DNA from: an uncultured Spirochaetales bacterium
GTDB lineage: Bacteria; Spirochaetota; Spirochaetia; JABMQR01
Assembly (NCBI GenBank): GCA_964567895.1
Contig: CAZMOX010000002.1
Location: 6,307-70,306, forward strand
DNA: 64,000 nt
Direction: 5' to 3'
Shown: positions 15,341-21,489 of the stretch, piece after piece
Numbering within the stretch: position 1 is the first letter of the stretch
Layout of the letters: each line of letters begins with the position of its first letter
Translations under genes and position numbers: made by a program
The notes under the pieces: generated by a model
Databases searched by the model: none
What the model saw: the letters and a program-made list of their open reading frames with translations, nothing else
What the model was told of the DNA's origin: nothing

Positions 15341-17272
15341 TTAGTCATCCACAACTTCAAAATCAGCATCCTCAACATTGTCATCACCGGATGGTCCCTG
15401 CCGGGGCTGTTCTTCAGCTCCTGCTGCTCCGTCGGCGGCACCATCCGCTCCTGGCTGCTGCTGGTCTGCAGATTGTTTGTAGACCTCTTCTGCAAGCTTA
15501 TAAGCTGCCTGCTGCAGTGCTTCAGTCTTCGTCTTAATACTCTCTAAATCACCGGATTCCAGTGCTGACTTCAGATCAGCCTTAGCCTGCTCAATAGCTG
15601 CCTTGTCTTCATCTGAAATTTTATCACCGAACTCTTTAAGGGACTTATCTGTGGTATACATAAGGTTATCTGCAGCATTCCGTGCTTCAATACTCTCTCT
15701 CTCCTGCTTATCCTCAGCTGCATGCATTTCTGCTTCTTTCACCATTTTCTCAATTTCACTATCAGAGAGACCTGAGGAGGATTCGATTCGGATTTTCTGC
15801 TCTTTTCCTGTTCCCAGGTCTTTAGCTGAAACATGAACTATACCATTTGCATCTATATCAAAGGTTACTTCAATCTGAGGCACTCCGCGAGGTGCTGAAG
15901 GTATACCGATGAGATCAAACTTACCGAGAGTTCTGTTCATCGAGGCCATCTCACGCTCGCCCTGGAGGACGTGTATTGAAACTGCTGTCTGATTATCAGC
16001 TGCAGTTGAGAAGGTCTGACTCTTCCTTGTAGGAATCGTGGTATTTCTCTCAATTAATTTTGTAAATACTCCGCCAAGAGTTTCAATACCTAATGACAGC
16101 GGTGTTACGTCCAGAAGCAGGACATCTTTTACATCGCCTCCAAGAATTCCACCCTGGATTGCAGCACCCATAGCTACTACTTCATCCGGGTTAACTCCTC
16201 TGTGAGGTTCCTGTTGGAACAGTTCTTTAACTGCTGCTTGTACAGCCGGTATTCTTGTTGATCCACCCACCAGAATTATCTTATCTATATCTGCAGGTAC
16301 TACTCCTGCATCTTTCATAGCTTTTCTGCAGGGTTCTTTAGTTTTTTCAATAAGGTCTTGAACCATCTGCTCAAATTTAGCCCGGGTAAGGTTAATCTGA
16401 AGGTGTTTTGGTCCGGAGGCATCTGCTGTAACAAAGGGAAGATTGATATCAGTTGACTGACGGCTGGAAAGCTCTATTTTTGCTTTTTCAGCTGCTTCAC
16501 GAAGTCTCTGAAGAGCCATTCTGTCTTTAGAGAGATCAATTCCGGTATCAGCCTTGAAGGTAGAAACCAACCAGTCCATTATGCGCTGATCAAAGTTATC
16601 TCCACCAAGATGCGTATCACCGTTTGTTGATTTTACCTCGAAAACTCCATCACCCAGCTCAAGTACTGAGACATCAAAGGTTCCACCACCAAGGTCGTAT
16701 ACAGCTATTTTCTCTTCATGATTACTATCTTTACCAAAGCCGTAAGCCAGAGAAGCTGCGGTTGGCTCATTAACGATTCTCTTTACTTCAAGACCGGCGA
16801 TTTTCCCTGCATCTTTTGTAGCCTGTCTTTGTGCATCGTTAAAGTAGGCCGGAACTGTTATGACTGCTTCTGTTACAGCCTCACCCAGATAATCCTCAGC
16901 GGTCTGTTTCATTTTCTGCAATACTGCTGCTGAGATTTCCTGAGGTGAATAATCTTTCCCTTGGGCTTCTACACGAACGGTACCACCGGCTGAATCTATT
17001 ATTTTGTACGGTACCATTTTTATTTCTGATGGTACTTCTGCATATCGTCTCCCGACAAATCTCTTTATAGAGTAGATTGTATTCTCAGGATTTGTAACAA
17101 TCTGATTTTTTGCCGGTTGTCCAACAAGTCGCTCGCCTTTAGTGGTGAATCCAACGATTGATGGTGTGGTGCGCTGGCCTTCAGAGTTCTGAATAACTAC
17201 TGGTTCACCCCCTTCCATTACTGCAACACAAGAGTTTGTAGTTCCTAAATCAATTCCAATGATACGTCCCAT
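15341..17272 (-). CDS. dnaK: Chaperone DnaK (Hsp70)
   Basis: [22 protein letters not shown], and the full Hsp70 architecture. 643 aa. Confidence 0.97.
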
Positions 17273-17368
17273 GTATCTGTCTCCTTATCTTCAATTATGT
17301 ATGAGGTTCTTTTAAAATTTCCTCATGTTATATACATTTTGATAGCAACTTCCAAAATCGGCTTAATT

Positions 17369-18028
17369 TTATTTTGTTTTTTTTCCGGATTTTTTCTTCG
17401 CTTCTTTCTTTTTCACCTCTTCTACCGGAGGAATGCCCACTTTTACTTTAGCGTGGCGCAATACCCGGTCATGAAGAAAGTAACCTTTCTGATAGTCCTC
17501 AATAATAGTCTGGATCGAACAATCATCACACTCTTCCATCATCAGGGCTTCATGTTCCTGGGGATCAAACTCTTTCCCAACAGTATCCATTCTTTTCAAG
17601 CCCCAGTTTCGTTCCAACATCCCGACAAATTGTTTCTCTATCAGGCGAAATCCTGAAAGAAAGCTATCAAAATCCTCTGAACTTTCAGCAGACCCAATTG
17701 CCCGCTCAAAATCATCAATAACCGAAACCAGATCAGCGAGAAGGTTTGAATTTGCATATTTAATTGCATCTTCTTTCTCTCTGAACATCCTCTTTCTAAA
17801 GTTATCAAAATCTGCCTGTTTTCTAAGAAGCTGATCTTTCAAATCTGCATTATCAATCTCTAACTTTCCTACATTCTCCTGCAATTGTAATAATTCCTGC
17901 TCTTCCGGTGTAAGCACATCAGTCTCAACACTAGAGTCTTTTTCAGAAGTTTTCTGATTTTCTTTAGCAGCAGTTTCCAAAGTTTCCTCTTCTCCTGCTG
18001 CAGTTGCCTGTTCTTTCTCTTCAGCCAT
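17369..18028 (-). CDS. grpE: Nucleotide exchange factor GrpE
   Basis: RKQADFDNFRKR... GrpE coiled-coil and beta domain. Acidic N-terminus. Confidence 0.9.
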   Translation of the reverse strand: MAEEKEQATAAGEEETLETAAKENQKTSEKDSSVETDVLTPEEQELLQLQENVGKLEIDNADLKDQLLRKQADFDNFRKRMFREKEDAIKYANSNLLADLVSVIDDFERAIGSAESSEDFDSFLSGFRLIEKQFVGMLERNWGLKRMDTVGKEFDPQEHEALMMEECDDCSIQTIIEDYQKGYFLHDRVLRHAKVKVGIPPVEEVKKKEAKKKSGKKTK

Positions 18029-18130
18029 CTACATCCCCTATGCATATTAATAAACCCAGTCCATTTTCTGAGCATTTTTTTATATAAATGAAGCTCTATC
18101 AAAAACACTCATTCTTGACAGAGCTATACC

Positions 18131-18161
18131 TTAGAATAAGATGTTTCGCATCTTATTCTAA
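18131..18161. promoter_or_regulatory. Perfect 13-bp inverted repeat TTAGAATAAGATG-N5-CATCTTATTCTAA, ~100 bp upstream of grpE. Candidate operator; not a CIRCE consensus.
   Basis: Read directly from the sequence. No flanking U-tract on either strand, so not terminator-like. Confidence 0.45.
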
Positions 18162-18283
18162 AAAAGTATGTATTGCATACTTCGCTTACCACGCAGGTAT
18201 GCTAACTGCACCCTAAACATACTAAGATATTTTTACTGGCGTCAAGTAATTTAAGAATTTAGATCTATTTTTTAGAATTTTTT

Positions 18284-19336
18284 TTATGATTCAGTAAAGT
18301 CCATCAATTCAAGGATTAATTCCACCTCGCCCCGGGGAATCCCGGACAACTCTGCTATACGGGCGGTATCAACTCCTTCCTTTGCATAACCCTCTACAAT
18401 ATCGCGTTTAGTCATTTTTTGTTCGACCTCTTCCGGCTCATCATCCAGGAAAAAGTCTTCATCATCGTCATCAAAGTTCACTTCTTCGACTATCTCATCT
18501 TCTTCATCATCGTCATCAAAGTTCACTTTTTCTTCCTCTTCTTCTTCTTCCTCTTCTTCTTCCTCTTCTTCTTCTATGTAAATTGGCTCTGGCTCTGGCT
18601 CTGGCTCAGGTACCGATTCTGTTTCTGTTTCTGTTTCTGTTTCTGGTTCTGGTTCTGGTTCTGTTTCCGGCTCCGATCTCCGGTCTCCCGTCTCCGGTAA
18701 TTCCCTATCTTCTCCTTTATGAGAAATCATCTCTACAGCCTTTTCTGCTGCTGCTGAAATTTTAGAATCAGCAGCTTCCAGCTTTTCGCCTACTTCCCGT
18801 ACAAAGTTATCAATACACTCCACACGCGACTTTTCTACTTGCTCTAAGACTTCACCATCAAGTAAAGTTATCCGTTCCTCCAGCGCAGCTGTCTCGCGGA
18901 TAAAGGCTTCAACTTTTTTCTCCATTTCGGCAACGCTTTCTGTTTCAACTTTAAGCTTTTGTAACCGTTTTTCGGCCTTTTGCGTAAGAACACTCAACTC
19001 ATTTAAAATTCGATGATAATGAGATGTATATGACTGTAATTTTTGAAGGTCGTCAGCATGTCTGTCAAGCTCAGTTAGAGACCCGTCCACTTTCTTCAGG
19101 AGAGCACTAACGGTAATTTCATGCCCCTGCACAGAATCTTCCATAGACTCTACCGAGGTACGCATTTTTTTAAACTTCTCATCAAGTTCATCCTGCATAT
19201 TTTCCATAAGTGTTTTTACAAGATGTATTTGCCGATCTTTTTTATCCAACTGTCGGTAGAAGATAATAATAAAAATAGTAATGAGAAATAGCCCAATATC
19301 TATAAGAATATACGTTGAATTCATAACTCTCTCCAA
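18284..19336 (-). CDS. Hypothetical membrane-anchored coiled-coil protein with hyper-acidic repeat region and C-terminal HTH-like segment
   Basis: N-terminal TM helix (ILIDIGLFLITIFIIIF) followed by R/K residues. Long heptad-like coiled coil. (EP)n/(ET)n/poly-E/VNFDDDDE x2 region. C-terminal IAELSGIPRGEVELILELM. Confidence 0.6.
   Translation of the reverse strand: MERVMNSTYILIDIGLFLITIFIIIFYRQLDKKDRQIHLVKTLMENMQDELDEKFKKMRTSVESMEDSVQGHEITVSALLKKVDGSLTELDRHADDLQKLQSYTSHYHRILNELSVLTQKAEKRLQKLKVETESVAEMEKKVEAFIRETAALEERITLLDGEVLEQVEKSRVECIDNFVREVGEKLEAADSKISAAAEKAVEMISHKGEDRELPETGDRRSEPETEPEPEPETETETETESVPEPEPEPEPIYIEEEEEEEEEEEEEEEKVNFDDDDEEDEIVEEVNFDDDDEDFFLDDEPEEVEQKMTKRDIVEGYAKEGVDTARIAELSGIPRGEVELILELMDFTES
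18527..18670. repeat. Coding microsatellites: (CTC/TTC)n poly-Glu, (GGCTCT)4, (TCTGTT)4, (TCTGGT)4, plus a 27-bp direct repeat (18459-18481 / 18505-18527)
   Basis: Hexanucleotide tandem arrays encode the EPEPEP/ETETET tracts of the 18284-19336 ORF. Confidence 0.85.
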
Positions 19337-19373
19337 TCATAATGAACAAACTTATTAGTTTGTTCATTTTCCT

Positions 19374-20099
19374 TTACAAAAGCCAACTTGTCAACAACTC
19401 CGGTAAATCTGCATACCGGGAAAAAACAATATCGGCCTGAGGATATTTTTTTCTTGCATTTACCCTGTTTTTTGTGATTAGTGCTGTTTTCATGCCGGCA
19501 GCCCGGGCTCCAATAATATCTTTTGTATAACTGTTACCCACGTACATGATTTCTGCGGGTTTACAACCCAATTTTTCTGCCAGATAGAGGAATGGTTCTA
19601 TTCGGGGCTTTAAGTATCCGGTATCTTCAGAGCAGCAAAATGCATCTGAAAGATCAGACACTTGCAGAGCCTCTGGTTTTATACCAAGAGGGAAATCAGA
19701 GAGAATCCCTAATTTCAAACCCATATTTTTAAGCTCCAACCATGCTCCTCTCACATTTCTATGTGAATGCACAGATTTGAAAACTGTATCCCAACTACCG
19801 TAAATCTTTCTGCTGATCCGGCTCTTTGTTTTGCTGACCAGTTCCCCCTCGGGCAGACGACCCATTGATCTAAGAACCGCTTTAGCCTGCCTGGTTCTGA
19901 AACCTTCTTCAAACTCCTCACCGGCCGCTGCCGCATCACGGAGGATTTTCCTGGCCTGACCGTAGTGATAGAGAAGCTTTGGATTTTTCAAGAGGATTGG
20001 TATCGAGTAGATACCTATCAAAGATTCCGGATAGAGCGTTCCATCTATGTCGAATCCAACTGCCTTAATAGACACACTAACCCCTTCGTTTTCTTTCAC
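19374..20099 (-). CDS. HAD-superfamily hydrolase
   Basis: DIDGTL motif I and C-terminal GNSYTKDIIGARAAGMKTALI motif. Confidence 0.7.
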   Translation of the reverse strand: MKENEGVSVSIKAVGFDIDGTLYPESLIGIYSIPILLKNPKLLYHYGQARKILRDAAAAGEEFEEGFRTRQAKAVLRSMGRLPEGELVSKTKSRISRKIYGSWDTVFKSVHSHRNVRGAWLELKNMGLKLGILSDFPLGIKPEALQVSDLSDAFCCSEDTGYLKPRIEPFLYLAEKLGCKPAEIMYVGNSYTKDIIGARAAGMKTALITKNRVNARKKYPQADIVFSRYADLPELLTSWLL

Positions 20100-21489
20100 G
20101 CAAGTGTATCTCTAACGGAACTGAGGGAAACCCGAGTTCTTTACGAATATTATTTGTAAGATATTGGAGATAACCTTTTGGAAAGCCCTTTAAATGATTA
20201 ACAAAAAGTAAAAAGTAGACCGGTTTTGTACTTGTTTGGGTTCCATAGAGGATTTTGTAGTACATACCTGTTCCCCGGGGAATTTCATACCTTTCCAACC
20301 AGCCTTTTAGAGCCTGATTGAATTTTCCGGTTTCCACACGTTTATTCAACTGTTTCCAGACACCCCAAACGGTATCAAGGAGTTTATCCATACCCTCACC
20401 GGTTTTTGCAGACAACGGTACGATCGGAGCAAACCCAAGGATAGGAAAGAGAAACCGCGTCCGATCCGTAATGGCCTCAAGCTGGTTTGGAACATGTTTT
20501 ATCAGATCCCACTTATTAAGAACCAGAACAACACCCTTCCCTTTTTGGACAATAAGATTGGCAATTTTCTTATCCTGTTCAGAAAGTCCTTCCACCGAAT
20601 CAATCATAATAAGGACTATATCTGATTCATCTATGGTACTGATGGCACGGTTGACTGAGTAATACTCAACGTTTTCTCCGACTTTTTTCTTCTTTCTGAT
20701 TCCTGCCGTATCAAGGACAATATAATCACTTCCCTTATAGGAAAAATTACCGGTAACAACATCCCGGGTGGTTCCCGGAATTTCACTTACAATTGAGGAC
20801 TCAATCCCGGTAAGCTGATTGGTAAGTGTGGATTTACCGGTATTCGGTTTACCCATAATTGCTATTCTTATCTCAGTTTCGATCTCTTCCTCTTCCTCTT
20901 CACCTTCCGGCTTTTCATCAAATCTATCTAAATTTACCGTAAGATTCATTTTTTCAAGGAGAGTCTCTTCCAGCTCCTCAACCCCCAACCCATGGGCTGA
21001 CGAAATTCCTAATACATCCTTAATTCCATAAGAGTAGAATTCCCAAATTTGATCCTCTCTTCCGGGGTTGTCGACTTTATTTACCACTAAAATAATTTTT
21101 TTTACGTAGGGTCGAAGTGCCTCAATAAGTGTCTGATCCTCAGGTGTGACTTCAGTTATATCGAGCATGAGCAGTATAATATCCGCCTTTTTAAGGACAG
21201 CATAACTTTTTTCTGTGACCAGGTAATCCAATCCTTCCTGATCAAGCTTTAATCCGCCTGTATCCGCCAGCATTACGGGATTTCCTTCGAGATCCCACTT
21301 CTCAAATATTGGGTCACGTGTAACTCCAGGCGTTGGATCTGTGATAGCTCTTCTTTTTCTTATAAGCCGATTAAAAAGTGTGGACTTTCCTACATTCGGA
21401 CGTCCTATTATTGCAACTAATGGTACCTTGATTTTAGGTACTGAAGAAATCGAATCGTTCATTTGACCATTCCCTGACATATTCGTCAA
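20077..21489 (-). CDS. der: Ribosome-biogenesis GTPase Der (EngA). The start is likely one of the downstream Met codons.
   Basis: Two GTPase domains (GRPNVGKSTLFNRL and GKPNTGKSTLTNQL) plus a KH-like C-terminus. Confidence 0.9.
   Translation of the reverse strand: MTNMSGNGQMNDSISSVPKIKVPLVAIIGRPNVGKSTLFNRLIRKRRAITDPTPGVTRDPIFEKWDLEGNPVMLADTGGLKLDQEGLDYLVTEKSYAVLKKADIILLMLDITEVTPEDQTLIEALRPYVKKIILVVNKVDNPGREDQIWEFYSYGIKDVLGISSAHGLGVEELEETLLEKMNLTVNLDRFDEKPEGEEEEEEIETEIRIAIMGKPNTGKSTLTNQLTGIESSIVSEIPGTTRDVVTGNFSYKGSDYIVLDTAGIRKKKKVGENVEYYSVNRAISTIDESDIVLIMIDSVEGLSEQDKKIANLIVQKGKGVVLVLNKWDLIKHVPNQLEAITDRTRFLFPILGFAPIVPLSAKTGEGMDKLLDTVWGVWKQLNKRVETGKFNQALKGWLERYEIPRGTGMYYKILYGTQTSTKPVYFLLFVNHLKGFPKGYLQYLTNNIRKELGFPSVPLEIHLRERKRRG

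What the first reader, a model, noticed from the sequence alone, without database searches (positions are those of the whole stretch)
18284..19336. Membrane-tethered coiled-coil protein with a hyper-acidic, microsatellite-encoded repeat region and HTH-like C-terminus, directly upstream of the chaperone operon
The 350-aa ORF has, in order:
- One N-terminal TM helix followed by basic residues, so the bulk is predicted cytoplasmic.
- ~170 aa of heptad-like coiled coil.
- An extraordinary acidic block: (EP)n, (ET)n, a 19-residue poly-Glu tract, and VNFDDDDE twice.
- A C-terminal segment TKRDIVEGYAKEGVDTARIAELSGIPRGEVELILELM that looks like a helix-turn-helix.

The acidic block is encoded by perfect hexanucleotide arrays (GGCTCT)4, (TCTGTT)4, (TCTGGT)4 and a long CTC/TTC run. 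That predicts in-frame length variation by slipped-strand mispairing. Its position (divergent region shared with the grpE promoter and the 13-bp inverted repeat) makes it a candidate membrane-associated regulator or scaffold. I cannot match it to a named family.
Basis: seen in the sequence. Interest (0 to 1): 0.6.

Follow-up and report, generated by a model that had tools for sequence, protein, structure and literature searches.

The report
Shortened spirochete membrane coiled-coil tether protein
This is a real gene for a membrane-anchored, rod-shaped protein of a spirochete-only family; its small end domain matches flagellum-assembly factors (FipA type), so it is probably not a DNA-binding regulator of the neighbouring heat-shock genes.

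Summary
The ORF is real and conserved. It has one N-terminal TM helix, a ~180-residue helical stalk, a ~95-residue hyper-acidic disordered linker encoded by 3- and 6-nt arrays, and a 40-residue three-helix C-terminal domain.

- It lies in tandem with grpE, not divergent from it.
- Poly-Glu is 15 residues, not 19.
- The likely start is the ATG at 19324.
- It does match a named family: NCBIfam LA_3659 / SpiroCoCo_N.

It is a drastically shortened positional ortholog of giant (1000-2150 aa) SpiroCoCo coiled-coil proteins. These occupy the same HAD–X–grpE–dnaK–dnaJ slot in other spirochetes and carry the same two end domains.

The "HTH" belongs to the DUF6115/DUF2802 group. The only characterised DUF2802 protein, FipA (TM + coiled coil + DUF2802), binds the flagellar GTPase FlhF. 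FipA's three invariant residues and their spacing are conserved here. The domain is acidic (pI ~4.4), and grpE has its own conserved promoter.

The linker differs completely in a ~97% identical strain, so length variation is real.

Best reading: a membrane-tethered protein-recruiting scaffold, possibly flagellum-related. The partner is untested.

The parts
18284..19336 (-). Coding sequence of the membrane coiled-coil protein (listed ORF 350 aa from TTG; probable real start ATG at 19324, 346 aa; stop codon 18284-18286)
   Evidence: ORF list and sequence. Homologs at E down to 2e-143 that begin MNxT. Synonymous-dominated change in the C-terminal 216 nt versus strain L009 (6 synonymous, 1 non-synonymous).
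19256..19312 (-). Single N-terminal transmembrane helix (residues 9-27 of the 350-aa numbering), followed by the basic juxtamembrane stretch RQLDKKDRQIH
   Evidence: Highest Kyte-Doolittle 19-residue windows (mean 2.6) at residues 8-10; juxtamembrane net charge +2. Helical in the AlphaFold2 model.
18710..19255 (-). Conserved SpiroCoCo_N / LA_3659-type helical stalk (about residues 28-209), a predicted coiled coil about 26 nm long if fully helical
   Evidence: NF047516/NF047514 score 78.8 bits over residues 16-205. Invariant residues R28, D31, R35, I37, L87, H93, Y107, R109, T118, K120, A121, E122, R124. Hydrophobic periodicity 3.5-3.65. One continuous helix covering residues 3-205 of the 346-aa numbering, pLDDT >90.
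18416..18715 (-). Hyper-acidic, intrinsically disordered linker (about residues 208-307): (EP)3 (ET)4 (EP)4, Glu15, VNFDDDDE twice
   Evidence: pLDDT <50 across residues 204-303 of the 346-aa model. 57% D+E. Unalignable with the ~97% identical strain L009, which has an N-gap there.
18526..18667 (-). Microsatellite-like coding arrays inside the linker: CTT/CTC run 18526-18575, (TGGCTC)4 18584-18607, (TTCTGT-type)8.5 18617-18667 (plus-strand notation)
   Evidence: Tandem Repeats Finder. All periods are multiples of 3, so slippage changes length and keeps the reading frame.
18287..18409 (-). C-terminal three-helix domain of the DUF6115/DUF2802 (FipA-type) group: ...KRDIVEGYAKEGVDTARIAELSGIPRGEVELILELMDFTES
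   Evidence: AlphaFold2 gives three helices, pLDDT 88.8. Six family C-termini all hit DUF2802 (E 3e-4 to 2e-3) and five of six hit DUF6115, all below the gathering scores. The family profile hits DUF2802/DUF6115-annotated proteins at E 1.7e-5 against 5.8e9 sequences. Invariant G, E and near-invariant L spaced 16 and 3 residues apart, as in FipA G110/E126/L129.
18216..18245 (-). Neighbouring element, not part of the gene: conserved sigma-70-like promoter of grpE-dnaK-dnaJ (CTTGACG-N18-TATGTT), downstream of the target's stop codon
   Evidence: Promoter scan. CTTGACG and TTAGTAT.TT are invariant in all 8 aligned syntenic loci.

Best explanation
The gene encodes a single-pass inner-membrane protein with its N-terminus outside and its bulk in the cytoplasm. 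The cytoplasmic part has three modules:
1. A ~180-residue coiled-coil stalk of the spirochete-specific SpiroCoCo_N / LA_3659 type.
2. A ~95-residue hyper-acidic disordered tether that changes length quickly through 3- and 6-nt repeat slippage.
3. A 40-residue three-helix domain of the DUF6115/DUF2802 (FipA-type) group.

It is the shortened positional ortholog of the giant SpiroCoCo coiled-coil proteins of other spirochetes. The two end modules and the chromosomal slot are kept. The 700-1800-residue middle coiled coil is replaced by the acidic linker.

Proposed mechanism (inferred): the stalk oligomerises at the membrane, and the C-terminal domain, held on a flexible negatively charged leash, captures a protein partner. 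By homology with FipA, the most specific candidate is the flagellar GTPase FlhF or another early basal-body assembly component. It does not bind DNA and does not control the dnaK operon.

Shown here: the architecture, the family membership, the positional orthology, the domain homology and the linker variability. Inferred only: oligomerisation, protein binding and the identity of the partner.
For: Family:
- NF047516 and NF047514 score 78.8 bits, above cut-offs of 36 and 75.
- A profile of the N-domain finds 507 cluster representatives. The domain always sits at the N-terminus, and protein lengths run from 88 to 2153 aa.
- 67 of 155 family members carry the same C-terminal domain, including nearly all of the giants.
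- Giants P0083 and P0144 pass both SpiroCoCo models.

Positional orthology:
- A 2052-aa member and a 1456-aa member lie between the HAD hydrolase gene and grpE-dnaK-dnaJ-spoU.
- A 421-aa member lies in the same slot with pyrG between it and grpE. A 365-aa member lies directly upstream of grpE, with two genes between it and the HAD gene.
- Eight closer loci show the same gene order as the window.

C-terminal domain:
- Six of six family C-termini have sub-threshold DUF2802 hits, and five of six have DUF6115 hits.
- The family profile reaches DUF2802/DUF6115-annotated proteins at E 1.7e-5 to 1e-3 in a database of 5.8e9 sequences.
- Relatives pass the DUF6115 gathering score: 29.1, 29.0, 33.5 and 32.3 bits against 27. 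They reach E 3e-7 on DUF2802.
- The FipA architecture (TM, coiled region, DUF2802) and its FlhF-binding residues G110 and L129 are described in PMC11620751. The spacing of the three invariant residues matches ours.

Against DNA binding:
- The domain has pI 4.05-4.9 and net charge -2 to -8 in 8 members. The third helix reads GEVELILEL.
- grpE has its own invariant promoter.

Structure: helix over residues 3-205, disorder over 204-303, then three helices.

Selection: the C-terminal 216 nt show 6 synonymous and 1 non-synonymous change against strain L009. The linker is always acidic, although its sequence and length vary.
Against: - The window protein itself is below the Pfam gathering scores for DUF2802 (21.2 vs 33.5 bits) and DUF6115 (14.8 vs 27). 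The link is therefore transitive and covers only about 30-40 residues.
- I could not run a direct profile-profile comparison with genuine gammaproteobacterial FipA sequences.
- fipA sits next to flhF/flhG, whereas this gene sits next to grpE-dnaK-dnaJ. There are no flagellar genes in the 64-kb window.
- Family members in the same slot that end in an acidic tail lack the domain altogether. The family's core function may therefore reside in the N-domain and stalk.
- The FipA authors report no FipA homologs in spirochetes.
- No experimental data exist for any family member.
Confidence: 0.55

Rival explanations
1. Membrane-tethered helix-turn-helix transcription regulator. The C-terminal HTH binds the operator/promoter of the adjacent grpE-dnaK-dnaJ operon, taking the positional place of HrcA.
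For: - The three-helix fold's best PDB matches are DNA-binding HTH domains such as Tn3 resolvase, DesR/NarL and VpsT.
- There are weak Sigma70_r4 and HTH_23 Pfam hits on some family C-termini.
- The gene stays next to grpE across many spirochete lineages.
Against: - None of the Foldseek matches has E <= 0.001; the best is 0.46.
- The domain is acidic in every member (pI 4.05-4.9), and the putative recognition helix GEVELILEL has no basic residue.
- Its homologs belong to DUF6115/DUF2802, where the only known activity is binding the protein FlhF.
- In most lineages the same domain sits at the end of a 1000-2150-aa membrane-anchored coiled coil.
- Positional orthologs with an acidic tail lack the domain.
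- grpE has its own invariant promoter.
- In T. denticola the gene upstream of grpE (TDE0626) was not co-transcribed with grpE-dnaK-dnaJ and is not listed among the heat-induced genes (PMC2965109).
Confidence: 0.07
2. A partner of the DnaK chaperone system, for example a membrane tether, adaptor or client that is kept next to grpE-dnaK-dnaJ because the two work together.
For: - The HAD–X–grpE–dnaK–dnaJ–spoU linkage survives rearrangements of the surrounding genes in distant members.
- It holds for all three C-terminal types of the family.
Against: - A wider block of unrelated housekeeping genes (tlyA, ptsI, der, HAD, spoU) is equally syntenic, so gene order may be inherited only.
- A Leptospira-like member is not near grpE.
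- grpE has a separate conserved promoter.
- The protein has no J-domain, no DnaK-related domain and no other chaperone signature.
Confidence: 0.15
3. A structural or cytoskeletal membrane-associated coiled-coil element (spacer, ruler or filament) involved in cell shape or envelope organisation. The C-terminal domain would serve self-association rather than recruitment of a flagellar protein.
For: - The long single helix has heptad-like periodicity.
- Giant family members match SMC, Rad50 and apolipoprotein-type coiled-coil profiles.
- Stalk length varies enormously within the family, with proteins of 88-2153 aa.
Against: - In FipA, self-interaction is independent of the conserved DUF2802 residues.
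- The window protein has lost the long coiled coil but kept both end domains under purifying selection. That argues the ends, not the rod length, carry the essential function.
Confidence: 0.15
4. A decaying remnant of a giant SpiroCoCo gene, with no function of its own.
For: - The middle coiled coil is missing and replaced by low-complexity repeats.
- Several assemblies show the gene split or broken in the linker.
Against: - At least 19 short-form members, down to 21% identity, keep the intact N-domain, an acidic linker and the C-domain in one frame.
- The C-domain shows 6 synonymous and 1 non-synonymous change between strains.
- The breaks coincide with repeats that are hard to assemble.
Confidence: 0.03

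Closest known systems
SpiroCoCo family coiled-coil proteins (NCBIfam NF047514 N-domain plus NF047515 C-domain); no publication found
   Same: The same N-terminal TM plus about 200-residue domain (78.8 bits), the same C-terminal ...RGEVELILEL three-helix domain, and the same chromosomal slot between the HAD hydrolase gene and grpE-dnaK-dnaJ.
   Different: True members are 1000-2150 aa and pass the 313-position C-model at more than 300 bits. The window protein is 346 aa and scores 32.9 against a cut-off of 125. It has an acidic disordered linker where the long coiled coil would be.
LA_3659 family protein (NCBIfam NF047516)
   Same: It passes the model: 78.8 bits against a cut-off of 36. This is the name NCBI's annotation rules would most likely assign.
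   Different: The model covers only the N-terminal 221 positions. It says nothing about the linker or the C-terminal domain. No function is described.
FipA (DUF2802, PF10975) of Vibrio, Pseudomonas and Shewanella, the FlhF interaction partner for polar flagellum placement (PMC11620751)
   Same: The order of parts: short external N-terminus, one TM helix, cytoplasmic coiled region, small C-terminal domain. DUF2802 is a consistent hit for all six family C-termini tested and the top hit for three of them. FipA's three 100%-conserved residues (G110, E126, L129; spacing 16 and 3) have counterparts at the aligned positions.
   Different: FipA is 163 aa, has no acidic linker, and is encoded next to flhA-flhF-flhG-fliA-che. 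Here the scores are below the Pfam threshold (21.2 vs 33.5 bits), the gene is next to grpE, and FlhF binding is untested. The FipA authors state that homologs are absent from spirochetes.
DUF6115 (PF19610); possibly the family of Bacillus subtilis SwrB (YlxL), the single-pass membrane activator of flagellar type III secretion
   Same: SpiroCoCo C-terminal regions pass the DUF6115 gathering score over about 100 profile positions, and the window's domain is their clear homolog. A DUF6115 gene fragment lies immediately upstream of rpsB-tsf-pyrH-frr. [quoted passage not shown]
   Different: The window protein itself scores only 14.8 bits on DUF6115. I found no paper that mentions DUF6115.
HrcA, the repressor usually encoded directly upstream of grpE-dnaK-dnaJ (comparison from general knowledge)
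   Same: It occupies the gene position immediately upstream of grpE and has an HTH-type fold.
   Different: There is no sequence similarity to HrcA in Pfam or NCBIfam scans. The protein is membrane-anchored, its HTH-like domain is acidic and at the C-terminus, and no CIRCE element lies in the intergenic region.

Membership tests
LA_3659 family (NF047516) | Whole-protein score at or above the curated cut-off of 36 bits | tested here: met
   78.8 bits, E 4.2e-22, residues 16-205 on profile positions 3-195 of 221.
SpiroCoCo family | N-domain model NF047514 at or above 75 bits | tested here: met
   78.8 bits, only just above the cut-off. True giants score 218-251 bits.
SpiroCoCo family | C-domain model NF047515 at or above 125 bits | tested here: not met
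   32.9 bits, against 314-329 bits for P0144 and P0083.
SpiroCoCo family | Very long central coiled coil (members seen here are about 900-2150 aa) | tested here: not met
   346-350 aa. A disordered acidic linker replaces the central rod.
SpiroCoCo family | Same chromosomal position (positional orthology) | tested here: met
   HAD–X–grpE–dnaK–dnaJ–spoU for the 2052-aa and 1456-aa members and for the window.
DUF6115 (PF19610) | Pfam gathering score of 27 bits | tested here: not met
   14.8 bits for the window C-terminus. Relatives P0127, P0020, P0144 and P0171 pass with 29-33.5 bits.
DUF6115 / DUF2802 domain group | Significant profile-level similarity of the C-terminal domain to proteins annotated with these families | tested here: met
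   The 9-sequence C-terminal profile hits PF10975/PF19610-annotated proteins at E 1.7e-5 to 1e-3 in 5.8e9 sequences. A local HMM finds the domain in 67 of 155 family members.
FipA (DUF2802, PF10975) | Pfam gathering score of 33.5 bits | tested here: not met
   21.2 bits, E 3.4e-4, covering profile positions 40-66 of 68 only. The best relative reaches 30.9 bits.
FipA (DUF2802, PF10975) | Architecture: N-terminal TM helix, cytoplasmic coiled region, C-terminal domain | tested here: met
   compared with the description of FipA in PMC11620751.
FipA (DUF2802, PF10975) | The three residues 100% conserved in FipA (G110, E126, L129; G and L needed for FlhF binding) | tested here: met
   G and E are invariant and L is present in 8 of 9 sequences, with identical spacing of 16 and 3 residues. 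They fall on profile positions 43, 59 and 62 if the domain (FipA residues 68-135) maps to the model without gaps. That mapping is inferred, not aligned directly.
FipA (DUF2802, PF10975) | Gene immediately downstream of the flhA-flhF-flhG-fliA-che operon | tested here: not met
   The gene lies between a HAD hydrolase gene and grpE. No flagellar gene was seen among the ORFs of the 64-kb window.
FipA (DUF2802, PF10975) | Direct interaction with FlhF and a requirement for flagellum placement | not testable with these tools
   This needs two-hybrid or co-IP assays and genetics in a spirochete.
HTH DNA-binding transcription regulators | Tri-helical HTH fold | tested here: inconclusive
   Three helices at pLDDT 88.8. 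The top Foldseek PDB hits are HTH domains, but the best E-value is 0.46 and none reaches 0.001.
HTH DNA-binding transcription regulators | Basic or polar recognition helix and a positively charged DNA-facing surface | tested here: not met
   Net charge -2 to -8 and pI 4.05-4.9 in 8 family C-domains. The third helix is GEVELILEL.

The most novel reading that the evidence does not exclude
Spirochetes do possess a FipA/SwrB-type flagellar assembly factor, contrary to the published survey. It would be the C-terminal domain of the SpiroCoCo family, including this short acidic-linker form.

On this reading, FipA (DUF2802), the DUF6115 proteins at the swrB position of Firmicutes, and SpiroCoCo form one superfamily. 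All are single-pass membrane proteins that recruit or activate early basal-body components such as FlhF. The variable stalk or leash (an acidic tether of about 100 aa up to a coiled coil of about 1800 aa) would set how far from the membrane, or where along the cell, the partner is held.
Probability: 0.2. Interest if true: 0.75.

Novelty: new variant of a known kind. Interest (0 to 1): 0.45.

Why it matters
How FlhF finds the cell pole, and how spirochetes fix the number and subpolar position of their periplasmic flagella, is unresolved. FipA, the only known membrane recruiter of FlhF, was reported as absent from spirochetes.

This work links an uncharacterised spirochete-only family to the FipA/DUF6115 domain group. 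The family is catalogued in NCBIfam, and I found no literature on it. The link yields a concrete candidate that can be tested by two-hybrid assays with G-to-A and L-to-A substitutions, and by deletion plus cryo-electron tomography.

The short form also offers a natural experiment. Both end domains are conserved while the giant rod is swapped for a fast-evolving acidic leash.

If the flagellar link fails, what remains is an ordinary annotated hypothetical protein with a low-complexity linker.

Tried and rejected
- The first homolog search with the full protein was swamped by poly-acidic words and returned only 12 hits. A third search with the N-domain profile added little and gave no informative names.
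- The listing of cluster members returned no taxon or family names.
- Literature searches for SpiroCoCo, LA_3659, BB0512 and DUF6115 found nothing. The BB0512 query came from my memory of a giant Borrelia ORF.
- The afdb50 Foldseek library was unavailable. I therefore could not compare the C-domain model with predicted FipA structures.
- A PDB sequence search with the C-domain profile gave only spurious short matches, such as topoisomerase V and a designed repeat protein.
- An Rfam scan of 17000-20500 found nothing credible.
- CIRCE/HrcA idea: no CIRCE consensus is visible in the intergenic sequence. A pattern search for the grpE-proximal inverted repeat as a DNA palindrome found no match in the window. 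This fits an RNA hairpin with G·U pairs rather than a DNA operator.
- I considered the terminal acidic motif GEEEEIxLDDD of the tail-type members as a shared linear motif. Only 2 of the domain-bearing members match the strict pattern and the window protein does not, so it stays a side note.
- I did not fold-search the full-length model, because a single long helix gives trivial matches.
Full report
**The observation**

The 350-codon ORF at 18284..19336 on the minus strand is present as described. It lies on the same strand as grpE (17369..18028), dnaK and dnaJ, and 255 bp upstream of grpE. The "divergent region shared with the grpE promoter" therefore does not exist.

The listed TTG start is probably not used. 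Five codons in, the ATG at 19324 follows a GGAGAG ribosome-binding site, and homologs begin MNxT.

The composition claims mostly hold:
- One hydrophobic segment, residues 9-27, is followed by a juxtamembrane stretch with net charge +2.
- The next ~180 residues have hydrophobic periodicity of 3.5-3.65, exceeded by none of 2000 shuffles.
- The acidic block is 57% Asp+Glu. It contains (EP)3, (ET)4, (EP)4 and two copies of VNFDDDDE. The poly-Glu run is 15 residues, not 19.
- Tandem Repeats Finder confirms the perfect and near-perfect 6-nt arrays and the CTT-type run.

AlphaFold2 with a 19-sequence alignment gives one uninterrupted helix over residues 3-205 (pLDDT >90). Residues 204-303 are disordered (pLDDT <50), followed by a compact three-helix C-terminal domain. 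Modelled alone, that domain reaches pLDDT 88.8.

**It is a real, conserved gene in a named family**

Homologs reach E = 2e-143. The alignment shows a conserved TM helix plus residues ~15-125, a linker that varies in length and sequence, and a conserved last ~45 residues, KR..V..Y..EG....IAE...IPxGEVELILEL.DF.

NCBIfam assigns the N-terminal 200 residues to NF047516 (LA_3659 family; 78.8 bits, cut-off 36) and to NF047514 (SpiroCoCo_N; cut-off 75). The SpiroCoCo C-terminal model is missed, with 32.9 bits against 125. No Pfam family passes its threshold. I found no paper mentioning SpiroCoCo or LA_3659.

**Family structure**

A profile of the N-domain, searched exhaustively against 1.84 billion cluster representatives, found 507 proteins at E <= 1e-3 and 292 at E <= 1e-10. 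The domain is always at the N-terminus, and total lengths run from 88 to 2153 aa.

A local HMM of the window family's C-terminal domain finds that domain in 67 of 155 members, including nearly all of the 1000-2150-aa giants. The giants are true SpiroCoCo proteins that pass both NCBIfam models.

A further group of 300-750-aa members lacks the domain. Many of these end in an acidic tail such as GEEEEIxLDDD.

The window protein belongs to a short subgroup of at least 19 proteins, 295-504 aa long, that have both end domains. In 18 of the 19, the end domains are joined by an acidic linker of 63-240 residues with 27-57% Asp+Glu. The exception, P0127, has 13%.

**Positional orthology with the giants**

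Eight Spirochaetales/Spirochaetia MAG loci share the order tlyA – gerM-like – ptsI – der – HAD – X – grpE – dnaK – dnaJ – rlmB/spoU.

More distant contigs keep X in the same slot:
- A 2052-aa SpiroCoCo protein lies between the HAD gene and grpE.
- So does a 1456-aa one, in a contig whose upstream genes are otherwise different.
- A 421-aa acidic-tail member occupies the slot with pyrG inserted before grpE.
- A 365-aa member carrying the C-domain lies directly upstream of grpE, with two genes between it and the HAD gene.
- A Leptospira-like contig carries a fragmented family member away from grpE.

The window gene is therefore the shortened ortholog of a giant coiled-coil gene. The two ends are kept, and the rod is replaced by an acidic disordered segment.

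**What the C-terminal "HTH" is**

The fold is HTH-like. Foldseek's best PDB matches are the resolvase, NarL/LuxR-type and Z-alpha HTH domains. None has E <= 0.001, and the best is 0.46.

By sequence, all six diverse family C-termini hit Pfam DUF2802 (E 3e-4 to 2e-3) and five of six hit DUF6115, all below the gathering scores. A profile of nine C-termini hits proteins pre-annotated with PF10975 and PF19610 at E 1.7e-5 to 1e-3 in a database of 5.8 billion sequences. These hits turn out to be C-terminal pieces of SpiroCoCo proteins.

Several relatives pass the DUF6115 gathering score over about 100 profile positions (29.0-33.5 bits against 27). They reach E 3e-7 on DUF2802.

DUF2802 is the domain of FipA (PMC11620751). 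FipA has a short external N-terminus, one TM helix, a coiled region and the C-terminal DUF2802. It binds FlhF through conserved residues of DUF2802 and is needed for polar flagellum formation.

FipA's three 100%-conserved residues are G110, E126 and L129. They are spaced 16 and 3 residues apart, exactly like the invariant G, invariant E and near-invariant L in our alignment. They also fall on the aligned profile positions if the domain maps to the model without gaps. I inferred that mapping and did not align it directly.

The FipA paper states that homologs are absent from spirochetes.

**A lead on DUF6115**

One DUF6115 fragment lies immediately upstream of rpsB-tsf-pyrH-frr-…-uppS-cdsA-…-dxr-rseP-ispG-proS. 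From my knowledge of the B. subtilis map, swrB lies in that position. [quoted passage not shown] It encodes a single-pass membrane protein with a cytoplasmic C-terminus that promotes flagellar type III secretion (bioRxiv 10.1101/2021.04.30.442225).

This is a lead, not a result.

**Why a dnaK-operon regulator is unlikely**

- The C-domain is acidic in all eight members examined (pI 4.05-4.9, net charge -2 to -8). The helix that would be the recognition helix reads GEVELILEL.
- The same domain usually sits at the end of a >1000-residue membrane-anchored rod.
- Some positional orthologs lack the domain.
- grpE has its own promoter-like element, CTTGACG-N18-TATGTT. Its CTTGACG and TTAGTAT.TT blocks are invariant across eight loci, and it lies downstream of the target's stop codon.
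- In T. denticola, RT-PCR found grpE-dnaK-dnaJ co-transcribed but not joined to the upstream gene TDE0626. TDE0626 is also not listed among the heat-induced genes (PMC2965109).
- I could not confirm that TDE0626 is a family member. However, the published 3' primer for it reads K-T-V-K-G-E-V in one frame, which resembles the start of the C-domain's GEVELILEL motif. This is a lead only.

**Linker variability**

Contig L009, from another assembly, is about 97% identical in the flanking coding sequence. In the C-terminal 216 nt it shows 6 synonymous and 1 non-synonymous difference. Its linker cannot be aligned with the window's: it has (EP) repeated at least 14 times, contains a scaffold gap of Ns, and shows only one VNFDDDDE on the assembled side of the gap.

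The 84%-identical P0001 lacks the poly-Glu run. Two contigs end inside the linker (L001 and L003), and two assemblies split the gene there (P0002+P0017 and P0008+P0018).

All repeat units are multiples of three, so slippage gives length polymorphism rather than on/off switching. Acidity is conserved although sequence and length are not. This argues for a functional charged, flexible tether.

**Mechanism and confidence**

Shown here: the architecture, family membership, positional orthology to giant SpiroCoCo genes, homology of the C-domain to DUF6115/DUF2802, purifying selection on the ends, and a hypervariable acidic linker.

Inferred: the stalk oligomerises at the inner membrane, and the C-domain on its leash recruits a protein partner. 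The most specific candidate, by homology with FipA, is FlhF or another early basal-body component (about 0.25-0.3).

Three facts count against a strictly FipA-like role. The window has no flagellar gene neighbours. The gene's persistent linkage is to the dnaK operon. Tail-type orthologs lack the domain.

**Novelty**

The family is already catalogued and the protein would receive a family name, so it is not a new kind. Three things appear to be unreported:
- the short acidic-linker form as an ortholog of the giants;
- the link of the spirochete family to the FipA domain group;
- the possible FipA–DUF6115/SwrB relationship.

Interest is moderate. It would be high only if the flagellar link is confirmed.

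Noticed in passing
window 18216-18245 (-): Promoter-like element CTTGACG-N18-TATGTT, upstream of grpE and downstream of the target's stop codon. The CTTGACG and TTAGTAT.TT blocks are invariant in all eight aligned syntenic spirochete loci, so the chaperone operon has its own conserved promoter.
   Followed up: partly
window 18054-18073 (-), about 25 nt upstream of the grpE ribosome-binding site: A conserved hairpin in the grpE leader (GCUCAG-loop-CUGGGU). G·U pairs are tolerated and there are compensatory changes in other loci: L005 has GCTCAC/GTGAGC and L006 has GCTCAG/CTGAGC. It therefore looks like an RNA structure rather than a DNA operator. It is not CIRCE, and it could be an RNA thermometer or an mRNA stabiliser.
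   Followed up: partly
window 18132-18160: A perfect 12-bp inverted repeat, TAGAATAAGATG-cgaaa-CATCTTATTCTA, between the grpE promoter-like element and grpE. It is present only in the window and, with two substitutions, in the near-identical strain L009. It is absent from six other loci.
   Followed up: partly
window 19341-19368: A 12-bp inverted repeat, AATGAACAAACT-tatt-AGTTTGTTCATT, in the 37-bp gap between the HAD hydrolase stop codon and the target's start. A TTGACA-17-GAAAAT promoter-like site lies just upstream at 19366-19394. It may be a terminator or attenuator, or a structure near the ribosome-binding site.
   Followed up: no
family members P0068-P0198 (e.g. L012 8001-9266): Many 300-750-aa family members lack the C-terminal domain and instead end in a conserved acidic tail, such as (Y)xGEEEEI(x)LDDD, about 10 residues from the C-terminus. 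At least one occupies the same slot upstream of grpE. This may be a short linear binding motif.
   Followed up: partly
L016 1-138 and downstream: A DUF6115 gene fragment sits immediately upstream of rpsB-tsf-pyrH-frr-uppS-cdsA-dxr-rseP-ispG-proS. This corresponds to the position of swrB at the end of the B. subtilis fla/che operon. It suggests that DUF6115 (SwrB-like) and DUF2802 (FipA) are related flagellar factors. The FipA paper's main text does not mention this relationship.
   Followed up: partly
L001, L003 (contig ends), L009 506-605 (N run); P0002+P0017, P0008+P0018: Public assemblies often break, gap or frameshift inside this gene's acidic repeat linker. Automated annotations therefore hold N-terminal and C-terminal fragments as separate small proteins.
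   Followed up: partly
P0001 (NCBI HQ557_02210): The closest full-length homolog (84% identical) is labelled "Bacteroidetes bacterium" in NCBI, although every other relative and the synteny are spirochetal. This is probably a mis-binned or mis-classified MAG contig.
   Followed up: no
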